The notes under the pieces were generated by a model. It saw nothing but the letters and a program-made list of their open reading frames with translations. It had not been told where the DNA came from and did not search any database. The translations under genes and the position numbers were made by a program. Source: Chloroflexota bacterium (GTDB taxonomy: Bacteria; Chloroflexota; Limnocylindria; Limnocylindrales; CSP1-4). Taken from it: a DNA stretch of 64,000 bases. Shown in pieces: positions 24,449 to 27,079 of this stretch (its first letter is position 1; the number at the start of each line of letters is the position of its first letter). The stretch is from NCBI GenBank assembly GCA_046045415.1, contig JBJOLT010000032.1, forward strand, positions 4,578 to 68,577, written 5' to 3'.

Positions 24449-27079
24449 CTACCCGTGTCCGTGCCCGTCGTGGCCCCCGTGACCGTGGCCGTTGCCGTTC
24501 GCATGGGCGTGGCCGTTGCCGCCGCCGTTCCGGGCGAAGCTCGCCGGGAGGACCGGGAGGTTCGACCCCGCGAGGGCTCGCTGCTCGCCCGACGCCCGGA
24601 GCGCCCACTGGCGCTCCCGCCGGACGTACGTCATCTCCGTCTCCTGGTCGATCCGCGCGAGGGCGAGGAGGTCGATCATCGGGTTCTCGCGGCTCTCGTG
24701 GGCGAGCTCGAAGTCGGCGCCGTCGCGGAGCGCGTCGTACGGGCAGGCGTCGACGCAGATCCCGCAGAGGATGCAGCGGCTCTCGTCGACCTCGTACTTC
24801 TGGAGGACCCGCGGCTTCGGCATGAGCGCGCCGGTCGGGCACGTCTCCGCGCACCTGCCGCACGAGACGCACGGCGTCTCGTTCAGGCTCATGTCGAGCG
24901 GCGTCGTCACGAGCGTGTCGAAGCCGATCCGCATGAAGTCGTAGCACGCGGCGCCCACCACCTCGGCGCAGACGTTCGCGCAGCGACCGCAGTCGATGCA
25001 GCGGGACGGCTCGCGGAGGATGAACGCGTGGCTGTCGTCGCGGATGTAGTCGTGGTTCTTCCCGGTGAAGCGGTTCTCCGTGACGCTCCGGTAGCCCGCC
25101 CCCTGATGGTGGCCCTTCTCGAGGGTCCGGAGCGTGGTCCCGTACTCGATGCCGAGCCGGCGGAGGTCGCAGAAGCCGATCGCCTCGCAGGTGCACTGGA
25201 GGCAGCGGGTCGACTCGGCGACCGCCTCGGCCGGGGTGTACGGCAGCTCGTACTCGACGTAGCTCCGGTTCCGGTCGTGCGCCTCCATCGCCGTCATCCG
25301 GTAGCGCGGCTCCTTCGCCTCGCTCGTGAACGGGACGATCGAGAGGAACTCCGGCTGCGGCTCGGCGAGCGTCTGGCGCGTCCGGATCGAGGCGAGGTCC
25401 GCGCCGCGGAGGTATGCGTCGACCGCGTACGCGGCGCGGCGCCCCTCGGCGATCGAGGCGACGACCGTCTGGGCGCCGGTCCGGACGTCGCCCGTCCCGA
25501 AGACGCCGGGGCGGTCGGTCGCGAACGTGACGGCGTCGGCCTTCAGCCGGCGGTTCTTCGTCGCCGTGACACCGACGCTCCCCGGGTGCTCGGCCCAGTC
25601 GAGCTCCGGCCCCTGGCCGATCGCGAGGAGGACGCGATCGCACGGGATCGTGAACTCCGTCCCCGGCGCCGGCTCCGGGCGGCGCCGGCCGGACGCGTCG
25701 GGCTCGCCGAGCTTCATCCGGATGAACTCGATCCCGGTTACCTTCCCGGACTTCTCGTCGACGATCACCCGGGTGGGGCCGGCCTGGAAGATCGCCGTCA
25801 CCCCCTCCTCGATCGCCTCGTGGACCTCGCCGGCGGCAGGCATGTCCTTCATGTCGCGCCGGTAGACGAGCGTCACCTCCTTCGCCCCCTGGCGGACGGA
25901 GGTGCGGACGCAGTCCATCGAGGTGAAGCCGCCGCCGACGACGACGACGCGGCTCCCCTTGTGGCCGGGGTACTCGAGGCCGAGCGTCGCGGTCCGGAGG
26001 TACTCGAGGCCGTCGATGACGCCGTCGGCCTCCTCGTTCGGGACGCCGAGCTTGTTCGTGTCGTAGCAGCCGATCGCGACGACGACCGCGTCGTAGCCCT
26101 GGTTCTGCAGGTCGTCGAGCGTGAAGTCGCGCCCCAGCCCCTGGTCGCAGACGATCCGGCCGCCGAGCCGGACGACGCTCTCGTACTCCGCCTCGAGGAC
26201 CTCCACCTTCGGGAGCCGGTACTGCGGGATCCCGTAGCGGAGCATCCCGCCCGGGGCGGGGTCGCGCTCGAAGACGGTGACCTCGTGCCCGCTGAGGAGC
26301 AGGTAGTAGGCGGACGACATCCCGGCCGGGCCGGAGCCGATCACCGCGACGCGGCGGCCCGTCGGCGCCTGGCGCTCGAACGGGACCGGCGGGTCGATCC
26401 CGTCGTTCAGCTGCGCCTTGAGGACCTGGTCCCCCGCGTACCGGTGGCTGTCGCGGATCGCGATCGCCTCGTCGACCTCGTCGCGCCGGCAGTGCTCCTC
26501 GCACGGGGCGGGGCAGACGCGGCCGAGCACCGACGGGAACGGGATCGTCCGCTTGAAGACCCGGGCCGACTCCCGCCAGTTCCCCTCGGCGTTCTGCTTG
26601 AGGAACCCGGGGATGTCGATGTGGCTCGGGCACTTGTTCTGGCAGGGCGGGAGGCAGTACGCGTTGTGGTCGCTGAAGATCAGCTCGAGGTTCGTCCGCC
26701 GGAGTCGGCGGACCTCCTCGGTCTGCGTGCTGACGACCATCCCCTCGGCCGCGGCGAGGGAGCAGCTGATCGGCGGGTTCTCGATCCCCTCGACCTCGAC
26801 GACGCACATCCGGCAGGCCCCGAAGCCGGGGAGCTTCGGCTCGTAGCAGAGGGTCGGGATCTCGATCCCGTTGTCGCGGCAGACCTCGAGGATCGTCTGG
26901 CCCTCGTGGCCCTCCACGACCCGGCCGTCCACCTCGATCCGGATCCGCGGCGTCGACTGCGGCCGCTGGGGCGAGACGGTGGTGAGGAGCCGCTCCGCGC
27001 GGGGGTCGGCGGCGGTCGCGGGCGCGCCGTCGCCGGTCGCCGGGGGCTGCGCGCCTGGTCGGATCAGCAGGTCGGTCAT
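24449..27079 (-). CDS. NuoG-like Fe-S subunit chimera: NuoG/HydA-type N-terminal 2Fe-2S + His/Cys cluster, complete GltD-like (glutamate-synthase small-subunit-type) FAD/NAD(P)H oxidoreductase module, three CxxCxxCxxxC(P) 4Fe-4S motifs, His/Gly/Asn-rich C-terminal tail; no molybdopterin-like domain
   Basis: '[21 protein letters not shown]...ISCS' (2Fe-2S); '[16 protein letters not shown]'; '[10 protein letters not shown]' + '[42 protein letters not shown]' + '[17 protein letters not shown]' (GltD Fer4_20 + two Rossmann sites); '[14 protein letters not shown]', '[16 protein letters not shown]', '[16 protein letters not shown]'; tail '[26 protein letters not shown]'. Confidence 0.8.
   Translation of the reverse strand: [876 protein letters not shown]

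What the first reader, a model, noticed from the sequence alone, without database searches (positions are those of the whole stretch)
24449..27079. NuoG-position protein = 2Fe-2S + His/Cys cluster + complete GltD-like FAD/NAD(P)H module + three 4Fe-4S motifs + His-rich tail
The N-terminus matches the NuoG/HydA ferredoxin region ([19 protein letters not shown]...SCS, then [14 protein letters not shown]). Inserted after it is a full glutamate-synthase small-subunit-type unit. This unit comprises CPxPCxxxC plus two GxGxxG Rossmann sites: [10 protein letters not shown] and [10 protein letters not shown]. The NuoG-type CxxCxRCxxxC, CxxCGxCxxxCP and CxxCGxCxxxCP motifs follow. The expected ~600-aa molybdopterin-oxidoreductase-like domain is absent. 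The protein ends in [26 protein letters not shown], a metal-binding-like tail. A GltD module could let the complex use NADPH. Alternatively it could act as a second flavin site of the kind seen in NfnB/SudA-type bifurcating enzymes.
Basis: partly seen in the sequence, partly recalled or inferred. Interest (0 to 1): 0.85.

Follow-up and report, generated by a model that had tools for sequence, protein, structure and literature searches.

The report
Respiratory complex I with NADPH module
This gene encodes a strictly conserved iron-sulfur flavoprotein, derived from a soluble NADPH/NADH-exchanging enzyme, that sits inside the respiratory complex I operon of a widespread group of soil and freshwater bacteria and probably gives that proton pump a second, NADPH-using entrance.

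Summary
A single 876-aa ORF on the minus strand (24449-27079) carries a 2Fe-2S domain, a complete GltD/NfnL-type FAD/NADPH unit, three CxxCxxCxxxC motifs and a His-rich tail. It has no molybdopterin domain.

It is not a modified NuoG. Residues 46-757 are an NfnA/StnC-type subunit of the Bfu-family NfnABC/Stn transhydrogenases (PDB 9bov_A, E 3e-161). The last Cys motif (residues 757-808) is the C-terminal half of NuoI. The N-terminal half of NuoI is fused to a truncated, cluster-less NuoE two genes upstream. The operon reads nuoA-B-C-D-H-[I-N::E']-F-[NfnA'::I-C]-J-K-L-M-N.

This layout is kept in all 80 related Limnocylindria (Chloroflexota) loci examined. It also occurs, at about 45% identity, in two Thermoleophilia loci. 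Those loci keep the full bifurcating BfuB and BfuC subunits. The window's lineage has lost those bifurcation-specific parts.

Best reading: a non-bifurcating, proton-pumping NAD(P)H:quinone oxidoreductase. NADH enters at FMN and NADPH at FAD. The input module is tethered through a NuoI ferredoxin fold built from two polypeptides. The domain architecture is shown by sequence comparison; the activity is inferred.

I found no published description. The closest published concept is the predicted "Nuo-Bfu".

The parts
24449..27079 (-). Whole ORF, 876 aa: an NfnA/StnC-like subunit fused to the C-terminal half of NuoI.
   Evidence: ORF and translation. PDB phmmer: 9bov_A 3e-161, 8oh5_C 2e-144, 9n5u_A 8e-140. 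At least 120 orthologue clusters.
26705..26947 (-). N-terminal [2Fe-2S] domain (residues 45-125), equivalent to cluster A1/N1b. Ligands C78, C89, C92, C106.
   Evidence: Pfam Fer2_4, E 3e-21. The Cys are invariant in 81 orthologues and in the Thermoleophilia homologues. AF2 pLDDT is about 85-94.
25400..26668 (-). NfnL/GltD-type insertion (residues 138-560). It has two [4Fe-4S] sites (C142, C146, C150, C189, C193, C197, H212), an FAD Rossmann motif ([10 protein letters not shown]) and an NADPH Rossmann motif ([10 protein letters not shown]...VYRR).
   Evidence: Pfam Fer4_20 and Pyr_redox_2. Residue-level alignment to NADPH-bound StnC and NfnA. H212 aligns with the StnC K170 cluster ligand (PMC10482914). 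AF2 pLDDT is 85-97. Foldseek hits NfnL 5jca_L with TM 0.77.
25169..25204 (-). C626-x2-C629-x-C631-x5-C637. Together with H138 this would form the His-ligated [4Fe-4S] cluster (A3, the N5 equivalent). One of these Cys probably completes a GltD-unit cluster.
   Evidence: Aligns with 'CLECGCMDYFEC' of NfnA. Invariant in both clades. The ligand assignment is inferred.
24824..25021 (-). HydA/NfnA-type 2x[4Fe-4S] domain (residues 687-752). Motif A is C694/697/700/704 and motif B is C737/740/743/747. These correspond to clusters A2 (N4-like) and A4.
   Evidence: Weak Pfam Fer4_Nqo3 hit. Aligned to StnC 601-675 and NfnA 602-677. Cys invariant.
24656..24811 (-). C-terminal half of NuoI (residues 757-808). 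Motif C is C769/772/775/779-P, followed by 'DFELAHESR'.
   Evidence: TIGR01971 NuoI profile positions 71-116 match residues 757-802. TYKY/NuoI chains, residues 99-148, match with E 3e-13. Rejoining it in silico with the upstream N-half gives one end-to-end NuoI match, positions 1-116, 97 bits.
24545..24655 (-). Conserved C-terminal segment (residues 809-845): 'ETE(V/M)TYIRRERDW..RA..EGR...LLPVLP'.
   Evidence: Conserved in 81 orthologues. Predicted as a helix (low confidence).
24452..24544 (-). His/Gly/Asn-rich low-complexity tail (residues 846-876).
   Evidence: Present in 81 of 81 Limnocylindria orthologues and variable in sequence. Absent from Thermoleophilia homologues. Function unknown.
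28415..29071 (-). Partner gene, 218 aa. It fuses the NuoI N-terminal half (about residues 1-88; C53/56/59/63-P; coordinates 28808-29071) to the N-terminal helical domain of NuoE/NfnC (residues 118-190; coordinates 28502-28720). It has no [2Fe-2S] domain.
   Evidence: NuoI profile positions 1-66 match the N-terminal part (window:28415-29059 residues 9-75 = residues 13-79 of the 218-aa protein), and the NuoE/HoxE/FdsG N-terminal part follows. PDB best hit is NfnC 9bov_C, residues 19-87. There is no Cys after position 67 in 75 of 75 orthologues.
27092..28414 (-). NuoF-like flavoprotein, 440 aa, with an FMN/NADH site and an N3/B1 cluster. It has BfuB ancestry but lacks the N-terminal Trx-like domain and the C-terminal 2x[4Fe-4S] domain.
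   Evidence: Pfam Complex1_51K and NADH_4Fe-4S. Best PDB hits are NfnB/HydB (2e-96), ahead of complex I NuoF (8e-78 to 1e-65). The motif is C-G-K-[T/S]-I-P-C with an invariant C-D-H-E-R.
29068..33300 (-). Upstream core genes: nuoH (29068 to about 30410), nuoD (30411-31652), nuoC (31649-32197), nuoB (32201 to about 32800), nuoA (32902 to about 33300).
   Evidence: NCBIfam and Pfam matches. Start codons are approximate.
18464..24380 (-). Downstream core genes: nuoJ (23844 to about 24380), nuoK (23536-23847), nuoL (21496-23529), nuoM (19950-21491), nuoN (18464-19930).
   Evidence: NCBIfam and Pfam matches.

Best explanation
The ORF encodes the large subunit of an electron-input module that descends from a soluble NfnABC/Stn (Bfu-family) NADPH:NAD/ferredoxin transhydrogenase. 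That module now sits inside a complex I operon, within the position of nuoI.

Predicted cofactors of the protein:
- one [2Fe-2S] cluster (A1);
- five [4Fe-4S] clusters (A2, A3, A4, A6, A7);
- FAD, with an NADPH site.

Its last ~120 residues begin with the second half of NuoI. The first half of NuoI is fused to the N-terminal domain of a cluster-less NuoE. The two halves are proposed to rebuild the NuoI ferredoxin fold, so that clusters N6a and N6b are each ligated by Cys from both chains. This would covalently tether the module to the quinone module.

Proposed electron flow:
- NADH: FMN (NuoF') to B1/N3, A1, then A2.
- NADPH: FAD to A7, A6, A3, then A2.
- From the A2 junction onward: split NuoI, N2 (NuoB), then menaquinone, driving proton pumping.

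The Fdh-like domain that follows A4 in soluble NfnA is replaced here by the NuoI half. The exit is therefore most simply through the A4 arm, which would put all three arms of the NuoG-type Y-junction to use.

This lineage has lost the bifurcation-specific parts (C1, B3/B4, the BfuB N-terminal domain). The enzyme is therefore read as a non-bifurcating, dual-donor NAD(P)H:quinone oxidoreductase.

Shown by sequence comparison: the architecture, the homologies, the split of NuoI, and the conservation. Inferred: cofactor occupancy, the exit arm, and the activities.
For: Homology of the three module subunits:
- The target matches NfnA/StnC over residues 46-757, with matching Cys, FAD and NADPH motifs.
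- Foldseek with the confident part of the AF2 model ranks 9bov_A, 8oh5_C and 9n5u_A first.
- NuoF' is closest to NfnB/HydB.
- E' is closest to NfnC.

Split NuoI:
- Complementary NuoI profile matches: positions 1-66 in the upstream fusion and 71-116 in the target.
- The two halves rejoined in silico match NuoI positions 1-116 in one stretch, 97 bits, against 47 and 59 bits separately.
- There is no other nuoI between nuoH and nuoJ, and the same gene order holds in 80 of 80 loci.
- Thermoleophilia homologues (43-48% identity) show the split at the same profile position. I read this as a single origin.

Complete core: NuoA, B, C, D, H, J, K, L, M and N are all present.

Conservation: every ligand Cys/His is invariant.

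Loss of the bifurcation kit in this lineage only (against 67-69):
- no C1 domain;
- no B3/B4 domain;
- the second N3 Cys is Thr/Ser in 76 of 76 sequences;
- the FMN loop N-[AG]-D-E-G-D-P (NfnB NADEGDP; Thermoleophilia NGDEGDP) has become N-G-Y-G-A-D-P.

From the literature: the electron path and the non-bifurcating role of the FAD in solved relatives (PMC10482914, PMC11829005).
Against: - There are no biochemical data, and I found no named cultured organism among the hits.
- AF2 could not model residues 630-821 (pLDDT about 30).
The pairing of the two NuoI halves and the exit arm are therefore untested structurally.
- Motifs B and C are spaced so that they could also form a ferredoxin pair on their own (Pfam Fer4_7, residues 737-783).
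- The rejoined NuoI scores below the curated NCBIfam cutoff (97 against 113 bits).
- NuoF' has a remodelled FMN loop and lacks one canonical N3 ligand, so the NADH site could behave differently or be impaired.
- An uncontrolled FMN-FAD wire would act as a transhydrogenase short circuit.
Confidence: 0.62

Rival explanations
1. Same architecture, opposite or different physiological direction. The complex would mainly act as a pmf-linked NADP+ reductase by reverse electron flow from menaquinol, or as an NADH/NADPH transhydrogenase. Quinone reduction would be secondary.
For: FMN and FAD are wired to each other through A1-A2-A3-A6-A7, as in Stn/NfnABC, which are reversible transhydrogenases (PMC10482914). 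Complex I is reversible in general (my own knowledge).
Against: Sequence data cannot give direction. The bifurcation kit that makes Nfn-type NADP+ reduction favourable is missing.
Confidence: 0.18
2. The enzyme still bifurcates or confurcates electrons, as in Nfn-Bfu or the predicted Nuo-Bfu. For example, it would couple NAD(P)H and ferredoxin to quinone.
For: The module has Bfu ancestry. The Thermoleophilia relatives in the same split-NuoI operon keep a full BfuB (630-641 aa, with canonical N3, N-terminal 2Fe-2S and C-terminal 2x4Fe-4S) and a full NuoE with four Cys. Nuo-Bfu was predicted by Schut et al. (PMC9304861).
Against: In the window's lineage the C1 [2Fe-2S] domain, the B3/B4 ferredoxin domain and the BfuB N-terminal domain are all absent, and one B1 Cys is lost, in 75-76 of 75-76 orthologues. 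The minimal bifurcation site in solved enzymes is B1-FMN-C1 (PMC11829005). Neither flavin has two separate exits.
Confidence: 0.05
3. NADPH-only complex I. NuoF' and E' would be structural relics, and the GltD unit the only working entrance.
For: - NuoE has lost its cluster domain.
- NuoF' is among the least conserved subunits, at 61-75% identity.
- It lacks the second N3 Cys, and the acidic 'DE' of its FMN loop is replaced.
Against: GRGGAGF, GAYxxGEET, three N3 Cys and the C-D-H-E-R motif are invariant or nearly so in 76 orthologues. This argues for a maintained cofactor site.
Confidence: 0.1
4. NuoI is not rebuilt from two chains. Motifs B and C would form a self-contained 2x[4Fe-4S] domain in the target. 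The upstream NuoI N-half would then bind a single cluster or pair with motif A.
For: Pfam Fer4_7 spans residues 737-783. The B-C spacing of 21 residues is ferredoxin-like. P0259 carries the same third motif in a non-nuo fusion.
Against: - Motifs A and B align with the A2/A4 pair of the solved NfnA and StnC structures.
- The NuoI profile takes only motif C of the target (positions 71-116). It runs seamlessly across the rejoined halves.
- All four motifs keep all four Cys in two phyla.
- The A-B plus N-C pairing follows both homologies and leaves no orphan Cys. The only full alternative (B-C with A-N) goes against both.
Confidence: 0.1
5. Assembly or annotation artefact: a frameshift fusion of separate gltD, nuoG and nuoI genes, or a pseudogene.
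For: None was found. A few database fragments (P0123, P0124, P0211) are visibly frameshifted copies.
Against: The same uninterrupted ORF occurs in independent assemblies of at least 80 species and at least 120 protein clusters. GC3 is 0.98. Ligands are invariant.
Confidence: 0.01

Closest known systems
NfnA / StnC, the BfuA subunit with an NfnL/GltD insertion, of NfnABC/Stn transhydrogenases (PDB 9bov, 8oh5, 9n5u; PMC11829005, PMC10482914, PMC12018979)
   Same: - N-terminal [2Fe-2S] domain.
- GltD/NfnL unit inserted at the His-cluster motif.
- The same Cys patterns for A1, A2, A3, A4, A6 and A7.
- FAD and NADPH motifs, including the R288 equivalent of StnC R239.
- 36-38% identity over about 730 residues.
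- Gene order C-B-A with NuoE- and NuoF-like partners.
   Different: - The roughly 450-aa Fdh-like domain and cluster A5 are replaced by the C-terminal half of NuoI.
- The Lys ligand of the FAD-proximal cluster is His (H212).
- The partners lack C1, B3/B4 and the BfuB N-terminal domain.
- The gene is encoded inside a nuo operon rather than as a soluble three-gene unit.
Predicted 'Nuo-Bfu' complex I (Schut et al. 2022, PMC9304861)
   Same: A Bfu-type module sits in the middle of a nuo gene cluster in place of canonical NuoEFG. It is predicted to be a proton-pumping quinone reductase.
   Different: - As described, Nuo-Bfu is a 14-subunit A-N cluster. The paper mentions neither a GltD/NADPH unit nor a split NuoI.
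- It was reported in Deferribacteres, Proteobacteria, Planctomycetes and Nitrospirae.
- Here the BfuA is Nfn-type and NuoI is split.
- The order here is ABCDH[I-N::E]F[A'::I-C]JKLMN.
- The hosts here are Chloroflexota and Actinomycetota.
- The window's version has lost the bifurcating core features.
NuoG/Nqo3 of canonical complex I
   Same: Position after nuoF. N1b-type [2Fe-2S] domain. The start of the N5 motif. An N4-type ferredoxin-like domain.
   Different: - TIGR01973 scores 102 bits against a cutoff of 470.
- There is no molybdopterin-like domain.
- The second cluster of the ferredoxin-like domain (A4) is retained. Canonical NuoG lacks it (my own knowledge).
- The GltD insertion occupies the N5 arm.
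NuoI/Nqo9/TYKY
   Same: The two halves together cover NuoI profile positions 1-116 of 121. This includes both CxxCxxCxxxCP motifs and the N-terminal amphipathic segment.
   Different: The halves are encoded as two separate polypeptides, each fused to a different subunit of the input module. The combined score is below the family cutoff.
Mbx-like complexes in which a GltD-related flavoprotein takes the place of NuoI (Degli Esposti 2015, PMC4758237), and E. coli complex I engineered to oxidise NADPH (Morina et al. 2011, cited in PMC6560083)
   Same: An NADP(H)-binding function attached to a complex-I-type energy converter.
   Different: - In the Mbx-like case, a separate GltD-like subunit is proposed to reduce NAD(P)+ in a ferredoxin-oxidising complex.
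- In the engineered E. coli enzyme, the NuoF nucleotide pocket was mutated (my own knowledge of that paper; the text was not held).
- Here NADPH has its own flavin and Fe-S branch.

Membership tests
NfnA/StnC (Nfn-type BfuA) | N-terminal [2Fe-2S] domain followed by an NfnL/GltD insertion with two [4Fe-4S] clusters, FAD and NADPH sites | tested here: met
   phmmer E 3e-161 to 9bov_A and 2e-144 to 8oh5_C, over residues 46-757. Cys, GxGxxG, YRR and R288 motifs align. Foldseek top hits agree.
NfnA/StnC (Nfn-type BfuA) | C-terminal NuoG/Fdh-like domain (partial in Thermococcus NfnA and lacking the A4 cluster there; complete with cluster A5 in the bacterial enzymes) | tested here: not met
   No Pfam molybdopterin or Molybdop_Fe4S4 hit. 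The homology ends near residue 757. The next motif is ferredoxin-type and NuoI-like. Outside relatives have CxxCxxxC at this point.
Bfu family (electron-bifurcating BfuBC core) | BfuB with a C-terminal 2x[4Fe-4S] domain and an N-terminal Trx-like domain, and BfuC with the C1 [2Fe-2S] cluster | tested here: not met
   NuoF' covers only NfnB residues 117-538 of 602. E' covers only NfnC residues 19-87 and has no Cys there. The feature is met in the Thermoleophilia relatives.
Bfu family (electron-bifurcating BfuBC core) | Ferredoxin-dependent bifurcating activity | not testable with these tools
   Needs enzyme assays.
NuoG (TIGR01973) | Full-length match above the family cutoff, including the molybdopterin-like domain | tested here: not met
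   101.7 bits against a cutoff of 470. Only residues 48-147 match profile positions 1-99.
NuoI (TIGR01971) | Two CxxCxxCxxxCP motifs and the N-terminal segment in one polypeptide, scoring above the cutoff | tested here: not met
   The target holds only profile positions 71-116 (54-59 bits). The upstream fusion holds positions 1-66 (45-47 bits). Rejoined in silico they give 97.3 bits over positions 1-116, still under the 113-bit cutoff.
Complex I (nuo operon) | Core subunits A, B, C, D, H, J, K, L, M and N present in one operon | tested here: met
   NCBIfam and Pfam matches for all ten. The gene order is conserved in 80 loci.
Complex I (nuo operon) | Canonical N-module: NuoE with cluster N1a, NuoF with a four-Cys N3 cluster, and NuoG | tested here: not met
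   There is no N1a domain. N3 has three Cys plus Thr/Ser. NuoG is replaced by the NfnA-like protein.
GltD / NfnL (NfnB) / SudA small-subunit flavoproteins | Fer4_20 plus Pyr_redox_2 fold, with NADPH-type second Rossmann motif | tested here: met
   Pfam hits. TIGR01318 and TIGR01316 match residues 144-557, scoring below their cutoffs because the unit is a domain of a larger protein. Foldseek gives TM 0.77 to 5jca_L and 4ylf_B.

The most novel reading that the evidence does not exclude
A family of respiratory complexes I exists in Thermoleophilia and Limnocylindria in which a whole three-gene NfnABC-type operon lies within nuoI, fused in frame at both ends. In these enzymes NuoI would be rebuilt from two chains around shared Fe-S clusters. 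The NuoG-type Y-junction would use all three arms: NADH/FMN, NADPH/FAD and quinone.

The Thermoleophilia form keeps the full bifurcating core. It could therefore couple NADPH, NADH, ferredoxin and menaquinone to proton pumping. The Limnocylindria form in this window would be its streamlined, aerobic derivative: a natural energy-conserving NADPH:quinone oxidoreductase.
Probability: 0.4. Interest if true: 0.9.

Novelty: new variant of a known kind. Interest (0 to 1): 0.78.

Why it matters
Complex I is normally an NADH-only proton pump. No natural version is known to me that has its own NADPH-oxidising flavin branch.

If the reading is right:
- An abundant, largely uncultured class of soil and freshwater Chloroflexota respires NADPH with energy conservation, or makes NADPH by reverse flow. 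That would change how their redox balance and energy yield should be modelled.
- The two lineages together would give a natural series from a bifurcating Nfn-type module on complex I (Thermoleophilia) to a reduced non-bifurcating one (Limnocylindria).
- The system would show how new electron-input modules are grafted onto complex I: by interrupting a ferredoxin-fold subunit and letting shared clusters hold the pieces together.
- The split NuoI would also be a rare natural example of a 2x[4Fe-4S] fold assembled from two polypeptides.

Public annotation currently calls these proteins 'FAD-dependent oxidoreductase', 'formate dehydrogenase major subunit' or 'hypothetical protein'. The arrangement is therefore invisible in metabolic reconstructions.

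Tried and rejected
1. AF2 with 50 close orthologues gave mean pLDDT 45 and was unusable.
2. AF2 with 104 sequences from both clades gave pLDDT 85-97 for residues 45-125 and 150-570. Residues 630-821 stayed near 30. There is therefore no structural information on motifs A, B, C or the NuoI half.
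3. A fused test construct (target 681-850, a linker, then the NuoI N-half) was meant to let AF2 choose the motif pairing.
4. My first frames for nuoJ (23860-24342) and nuoH (29068-30400) were wrong and gave no family hits. Both were corrected.
5. The 50%-cluster representative search did not return a full-length representative of the target's own cluster, only fragments, some of them frameshifted. It did reveal P0135, which led to the Thermoleophilia clade.
6. Literature searches covered Limnocylindria, Ellin6529 or Thermoleophilia with complex I; NuoG with glutamate synthase and nuo operon; and N-module with GltD. None found a description of this arrangement.
7. I considered and rejected these readings: a frameshift artefact, a molybdopterin domain hidden downstream, and a soluble Nfn enzyme merely adjacent to an 11-subunit nuo operon. 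The in-frame fusions to both NuoI halves argue against the last one.

Full report
**Observation**

The interval 24449-27079 contains a single ATG-to-stop ORF of 876 aa on the minus strand. It lies in a window of about 73% G+C, and its third-position G+C is 0.98. All quoted motifs are present.

Pfam finds:
- Fer2_4 at residues 45-120;
- only the first 17 positions of the NuoG His-cluster model at 127-143;
- Fer4_20 at 142-221;
- Pyr_redox_2 at 243-546;
- a weak Fer4_Nqo3 hit at 687-752;
- Fer4/Fer4_7 at 737-785.

No molybdopterin family is found. The exact protein is on record from a MAG labelled 'Chloroflexota bacterium' (P0001).

**What the protein is**

Against solved structures the best matches are not NuoG. 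They are the large subunits of the Bfu-family NADPH transhydrogenases:
- Caldicellulosiruptor NfnA, 9bov_A, E 3e-161, query residues 46-779;
- Sporomusa StnC, 8oh5_C, E 2e-144;
- Thermococcus NfnA, 9n5u_A, E 8e-140.

These enzymes already have the NfnL/GltD unit inserted after the N-terminal [2Fe-2S] domain (PMC10482914, PMC11829005). The residue-level alignment shows several shared features:
- the H-x3-C-x3-C-x3-CP and CPxPCExxC patterns;
- the FAD GxGxxG motif;
- the NADPH GGGxTxxD...YRR segment;
- the R288 equivalent of StnC R239;
- the C-x2-C-x-C-x5-C motif after the insertion;
- the two ferredoxin-type motifs A and B.

One difference stands out. The Lys that ligates the FAD-proximal cluster in StnC (K170) is His212 here.

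A second AF2 run was confident for residues 45-125 and 150-570. With that model, Foldseek ranks 9bov_A, 8oh5_C and 9n5u_A first, followed by NfnL and GltD.

**Where the homology stops**

Relatives from outside this clade are 36-46% identical and 1000-1260 aa long. After motif B they continue with a CxxCxxxC (Molybdop_Fe4S4-type) motif and an Fdh-like domain.

The target instead continues with '[37 protein letters not shown]'. Two searches identify this segment:
- The NCBIfam NuoI model TIGR01971 matches target residues 757-802 to profile positions 71-116 of 121.
- TYKY/NuoI chains of solved complexes I match the same stretch, residues 99-148 of the chain, with E 3e-13.

**The other half of NuoI**

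Two genes upstream, at 28415-29071, is a 218-aa protein. Its N-terminal part matches NuoI profile positions 1-66 and carries a single CxxCxxCxxxCP motif. Its residues 118-190 match only the N-terminal helical domain of NuoE/NfnC/HoxE. The best PDB hit is NfnC 9bov_C, residues 19-87. It has no Cys beyond position 67 in 75 of 75 orthologues, so it has no N1a/C1 cluster.

I rejoined the two NuoI pieces in silico. The result is one uninterrupted NuoI match over positions 1-116, scoring 97 bits. Separately the pieces score 47 and 59 bits. A construct of motifs B and C alone is matched by the NuoI model only through motif C.

I therefore read the four motifs as two pairs:
- A+B, equivalent to clusters A2/A4 of NfnA;
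- N+C, equivalent to N6a/N6b of NuoI, with the pair split between two polypeptides.

The alternative B+C pairing cannot be excluded without a structure.

**Operon**

On the minus strand the genes run nuoA, B, C, D, H, [NuoI-N::NuoE'], NuoF', target, nuoJ, K, L, M, N. They are tightly packed or overlapping.

This is the order of an 11-subunit operon (ABCDHIJKLMN), with a C-B-A-ordered Nfn-like unit lying between the two halves of nuoI.

NuoF' (440 aa) is closer to NfnB/HydB (E 2e-96 to 1e-91) than to complex I NuoF (8e-78 to 1e-65). It covers only NfnB residues 117-538, so it lacks both the N-terminal Trx-like domain and the C-terminal 2x[4Fe-4S] domain.

**Conservation and distribution**

- At least 120 protein clusters are 80-87% identical and 857-908 aa long.
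- At least 572 GTDB species representatives gave tblastn hits (E <= 1e-3). The 80 best are almost all labelled Limnocylindrales, Limnocylindria or Chloroflexota.
- Wherever the contig extends far enough, these 80 loci show the same gene order, including the fused NuoI-N::E' gene as one HSP.
- All ligand Cys/His of the target and of the NuoI N-half are invariant.

In NuoF', several features are invariant across 76 orthologues:
- the GRGG-x-G stretch, the GEET core of the GAYxxGEET loop and three N3 Cys;
- the canonical second N3 Cys is Thr or Ser in every sequence;
- the fourth Cys is followed by C-[DE]-H-E-R (Asp in 73 of 75 aligned);
- the FMN-loop sequence N-A-D-E-G-D-P is replaced by a near-invariant N-G-Y-G-A-D-P.

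The last change removes the Glu whose peptide bond flips under control of N1a in canonical enzymes (PMC6560083). This fits the loss of the N1a/C1 domain.

**A second, more complete lineage**

A regex screen of the representative hits found P0135 (816 aa, 45% identical), which has the same NuoI-type third motif. Its relatives are 808-880 aa long and 60-88% identical to it. Where named, they are called 'Thermoleophilia bacterium'.

Two of their contigs (L081, L083) carry the same operon with the same NuoI split point: profile positions 2-66 in the fusion protein and 69-113 in the large subunit. There, however, the module is complete:
- The fusion protein contains a complete NuoE/NfnC with its four [2Fe-2S] Cys.
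- The NuoF-like protein is a complete BfuB of 630-641 aa. It has an N-terminal Cys-rich Trx-like domain, a canonical N-G-D-E-G-D-P FMN loop (CNGDEGDPGAF), a canonical ESCGKCVPC motif and a C-terminal 2x[4Fe-4S] domain.

Every subunit is 30-55% identical between the two clades. All ligand residues of the large subunit, including H138 and H212, are invariant across both.

The simplest history has two steps. First, an Nfn-type BfuCBA unit became integrated within nuoI once. Second, the Limnocylindria form lost everything specific to bifurcation. The His-rich tail is specific to Limnocylindria.

**Mechanism**

In solved NfnABC the path is NADPH-FAD-A7-A6-A3-A2-A1-B1-FMN-NAD. A4 and A5 form a dead-end branch from A2 into the Fdh-like domain. 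Bifurcation is assigned to B1-FMN-C1, with B3/B4 passing electrons to ferredoxin (PMC11829005). In StnC the FAD is non-bifurcating (PMC10482914).

In the window's enzyme the FAD-to-FMN wire is intact by sequence. C1 and B3/B4 are gone. The Fdh-like domain is replaced by the NuoI half.

I therefore propose a non-bifurcating enzyme with two donors. NADH enters at FMN and NADPH at FAD. Both reach the A2 junction. Electrons then leave through the split NuoI (N6a/N6b) to N2 in NuoB, whose Cys motifs are present, and on to quinone. The membrane arm pumps protons.

The exit arm is uncertain. Canonical complex I leaves through the His-ligated N5 cluster (my own knowledge). That arm here carries the GltD unit. 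The NuoI half follows motif B at the sequence position of the A5 motif. All eight Cys of A2/A4 are retained. I therefore favour exit via A4, with only moderate confidence.

Direction is not decidable from sequence. Either NADPH oxidation or pmf-driven NADP+ reduction and transhydrogenation is possible.

**Comparison with the literature**

Schut et al. (PMC9304861) predicted 'Nuo-Bfu', in which BfuABC replaces NuoEFG in 14-subunit clusters of Geobacter, Deferribacteres, Planctomycetes and Nitrospirae. As described there, it has no NADPH/GltD unit, and no split NuoI is mentioned. Actinobacteria are not mentioned in the main text, and Chloroflexi are mentioned only for the Mbh and Por types.

Degli Esposti (PMC4758237) noted Mbx-like operons in which a GltD-related flavoprotein replaces NuoI.

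I found no description of the present arrangement in the searchable library. Subscription-only papers were not covered.

I therefore class it as a new variant of a known kind. The building blocks are known (complex I core, Nfn-type BfuA, NuoI). They are combined in an undescribed way.

**Limits**

All functional statements are inferred from sequence. The C-terminal cluster region could not be modelled. I could not check whole genomes for a second nuoI or nuoEFG. The taxonomic labels on a few loci (Polarisedimenticolia, Vitreimonas, Anaerolineaceae) probably reflect binning or labelling noise, because those sequences are 79-83% identical to the rest.

Noticed in passing
window 28415-29071 (-): A 218-aa fusion protein. 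Its N-terminal part is the N-terminal half of NuoI, with one CxxCxxCxxxCP motif. Its second part is the N-terminal helical domain of NuoE/NfnC, without the [2Fe-2S] domain. It ends in an Ala/Pro-rich tail. It is conserved as one ORF in 74 related loci.
   Followed up: yes
window 27092-28414 (-): The NuoF-like protein is closest to NfnB/HydB. The canonical second Cys of its N3/B1 cluster is Thr or Ser in 76 of 76 orthologues. A C-[DE]-H-E-R motif (Asp in 73 of 75 aligned) follows the fourth Cys. The FMN loop is N-G-Y-G-A-D-P instead of N-A-D-E-G-D-P.
   Followed up: partly
window 33407-~34500 (-): An NDUFAF7/MidA-like SAM methyltransferase (PF02636, E 5e-50) lies directly upstream of nuoA on the same strand. 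It holds the same position in 63 of 66 Limnocylindria loci. A preprint (10.1101/2021.02.01.429150) notes NDUFAF7 next to 11-subunit nuo operons in Ca. Actinomarina.
   Followed up: partly
L081 3375-18319 and L083 3598-18334 (Thermoleophilia MAG contigs): The same split-NuoI nuo operon, but with a complete BfuB (630-641 aa) and a complete NuoE/NfnC carrying four Cys. This is a complex I operon with a full Nfn-type bifurcating module.
   Followed up: partly
proteins P0135, P0273, P0276 (alignment A3, columns ~380-420): A Thermoleophilia subclade has a degenerate second Rossmann motif ('VGDGFAA', with no YRR). Its NADPH site may be altered or lost.
   Followed up: no
protein P0259 (1049 aa, from the representative search): An NfnA-like N-terminal region with the same NuoI-like third ferredoxin motif, followed by what reads by eye as a TPP-binding, 2-oxoacid:ferredoxin oxidoreductase beta-like domain (no domain scan run). 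It may be related to the 'Por-Bfu' enzymes of PMC9304861. Its genomic context was not examined.
   Followed up: no
window 24452-24544 (-): The His/Gly/Asn-rich tail is the only His-rich segment in any frame of the 64-kb window. It occurs in all Limnocylindria orthologues and in none of the Thermoleophilia homologues.
   Followed up: partly
window 4140-9353 (+): A very long ORF (1737 aa) with protein-O-mannosyltransferase-like PMT and PMT_4TMC domains in its C-terminal third.
   Followed up: no
window 41662-49049 (-): A heat-shock gene cluster: ClpB, DnaJ, Lon, a MerR-family regulator and Hsp20, all on the minus strand.
   Followed up: no
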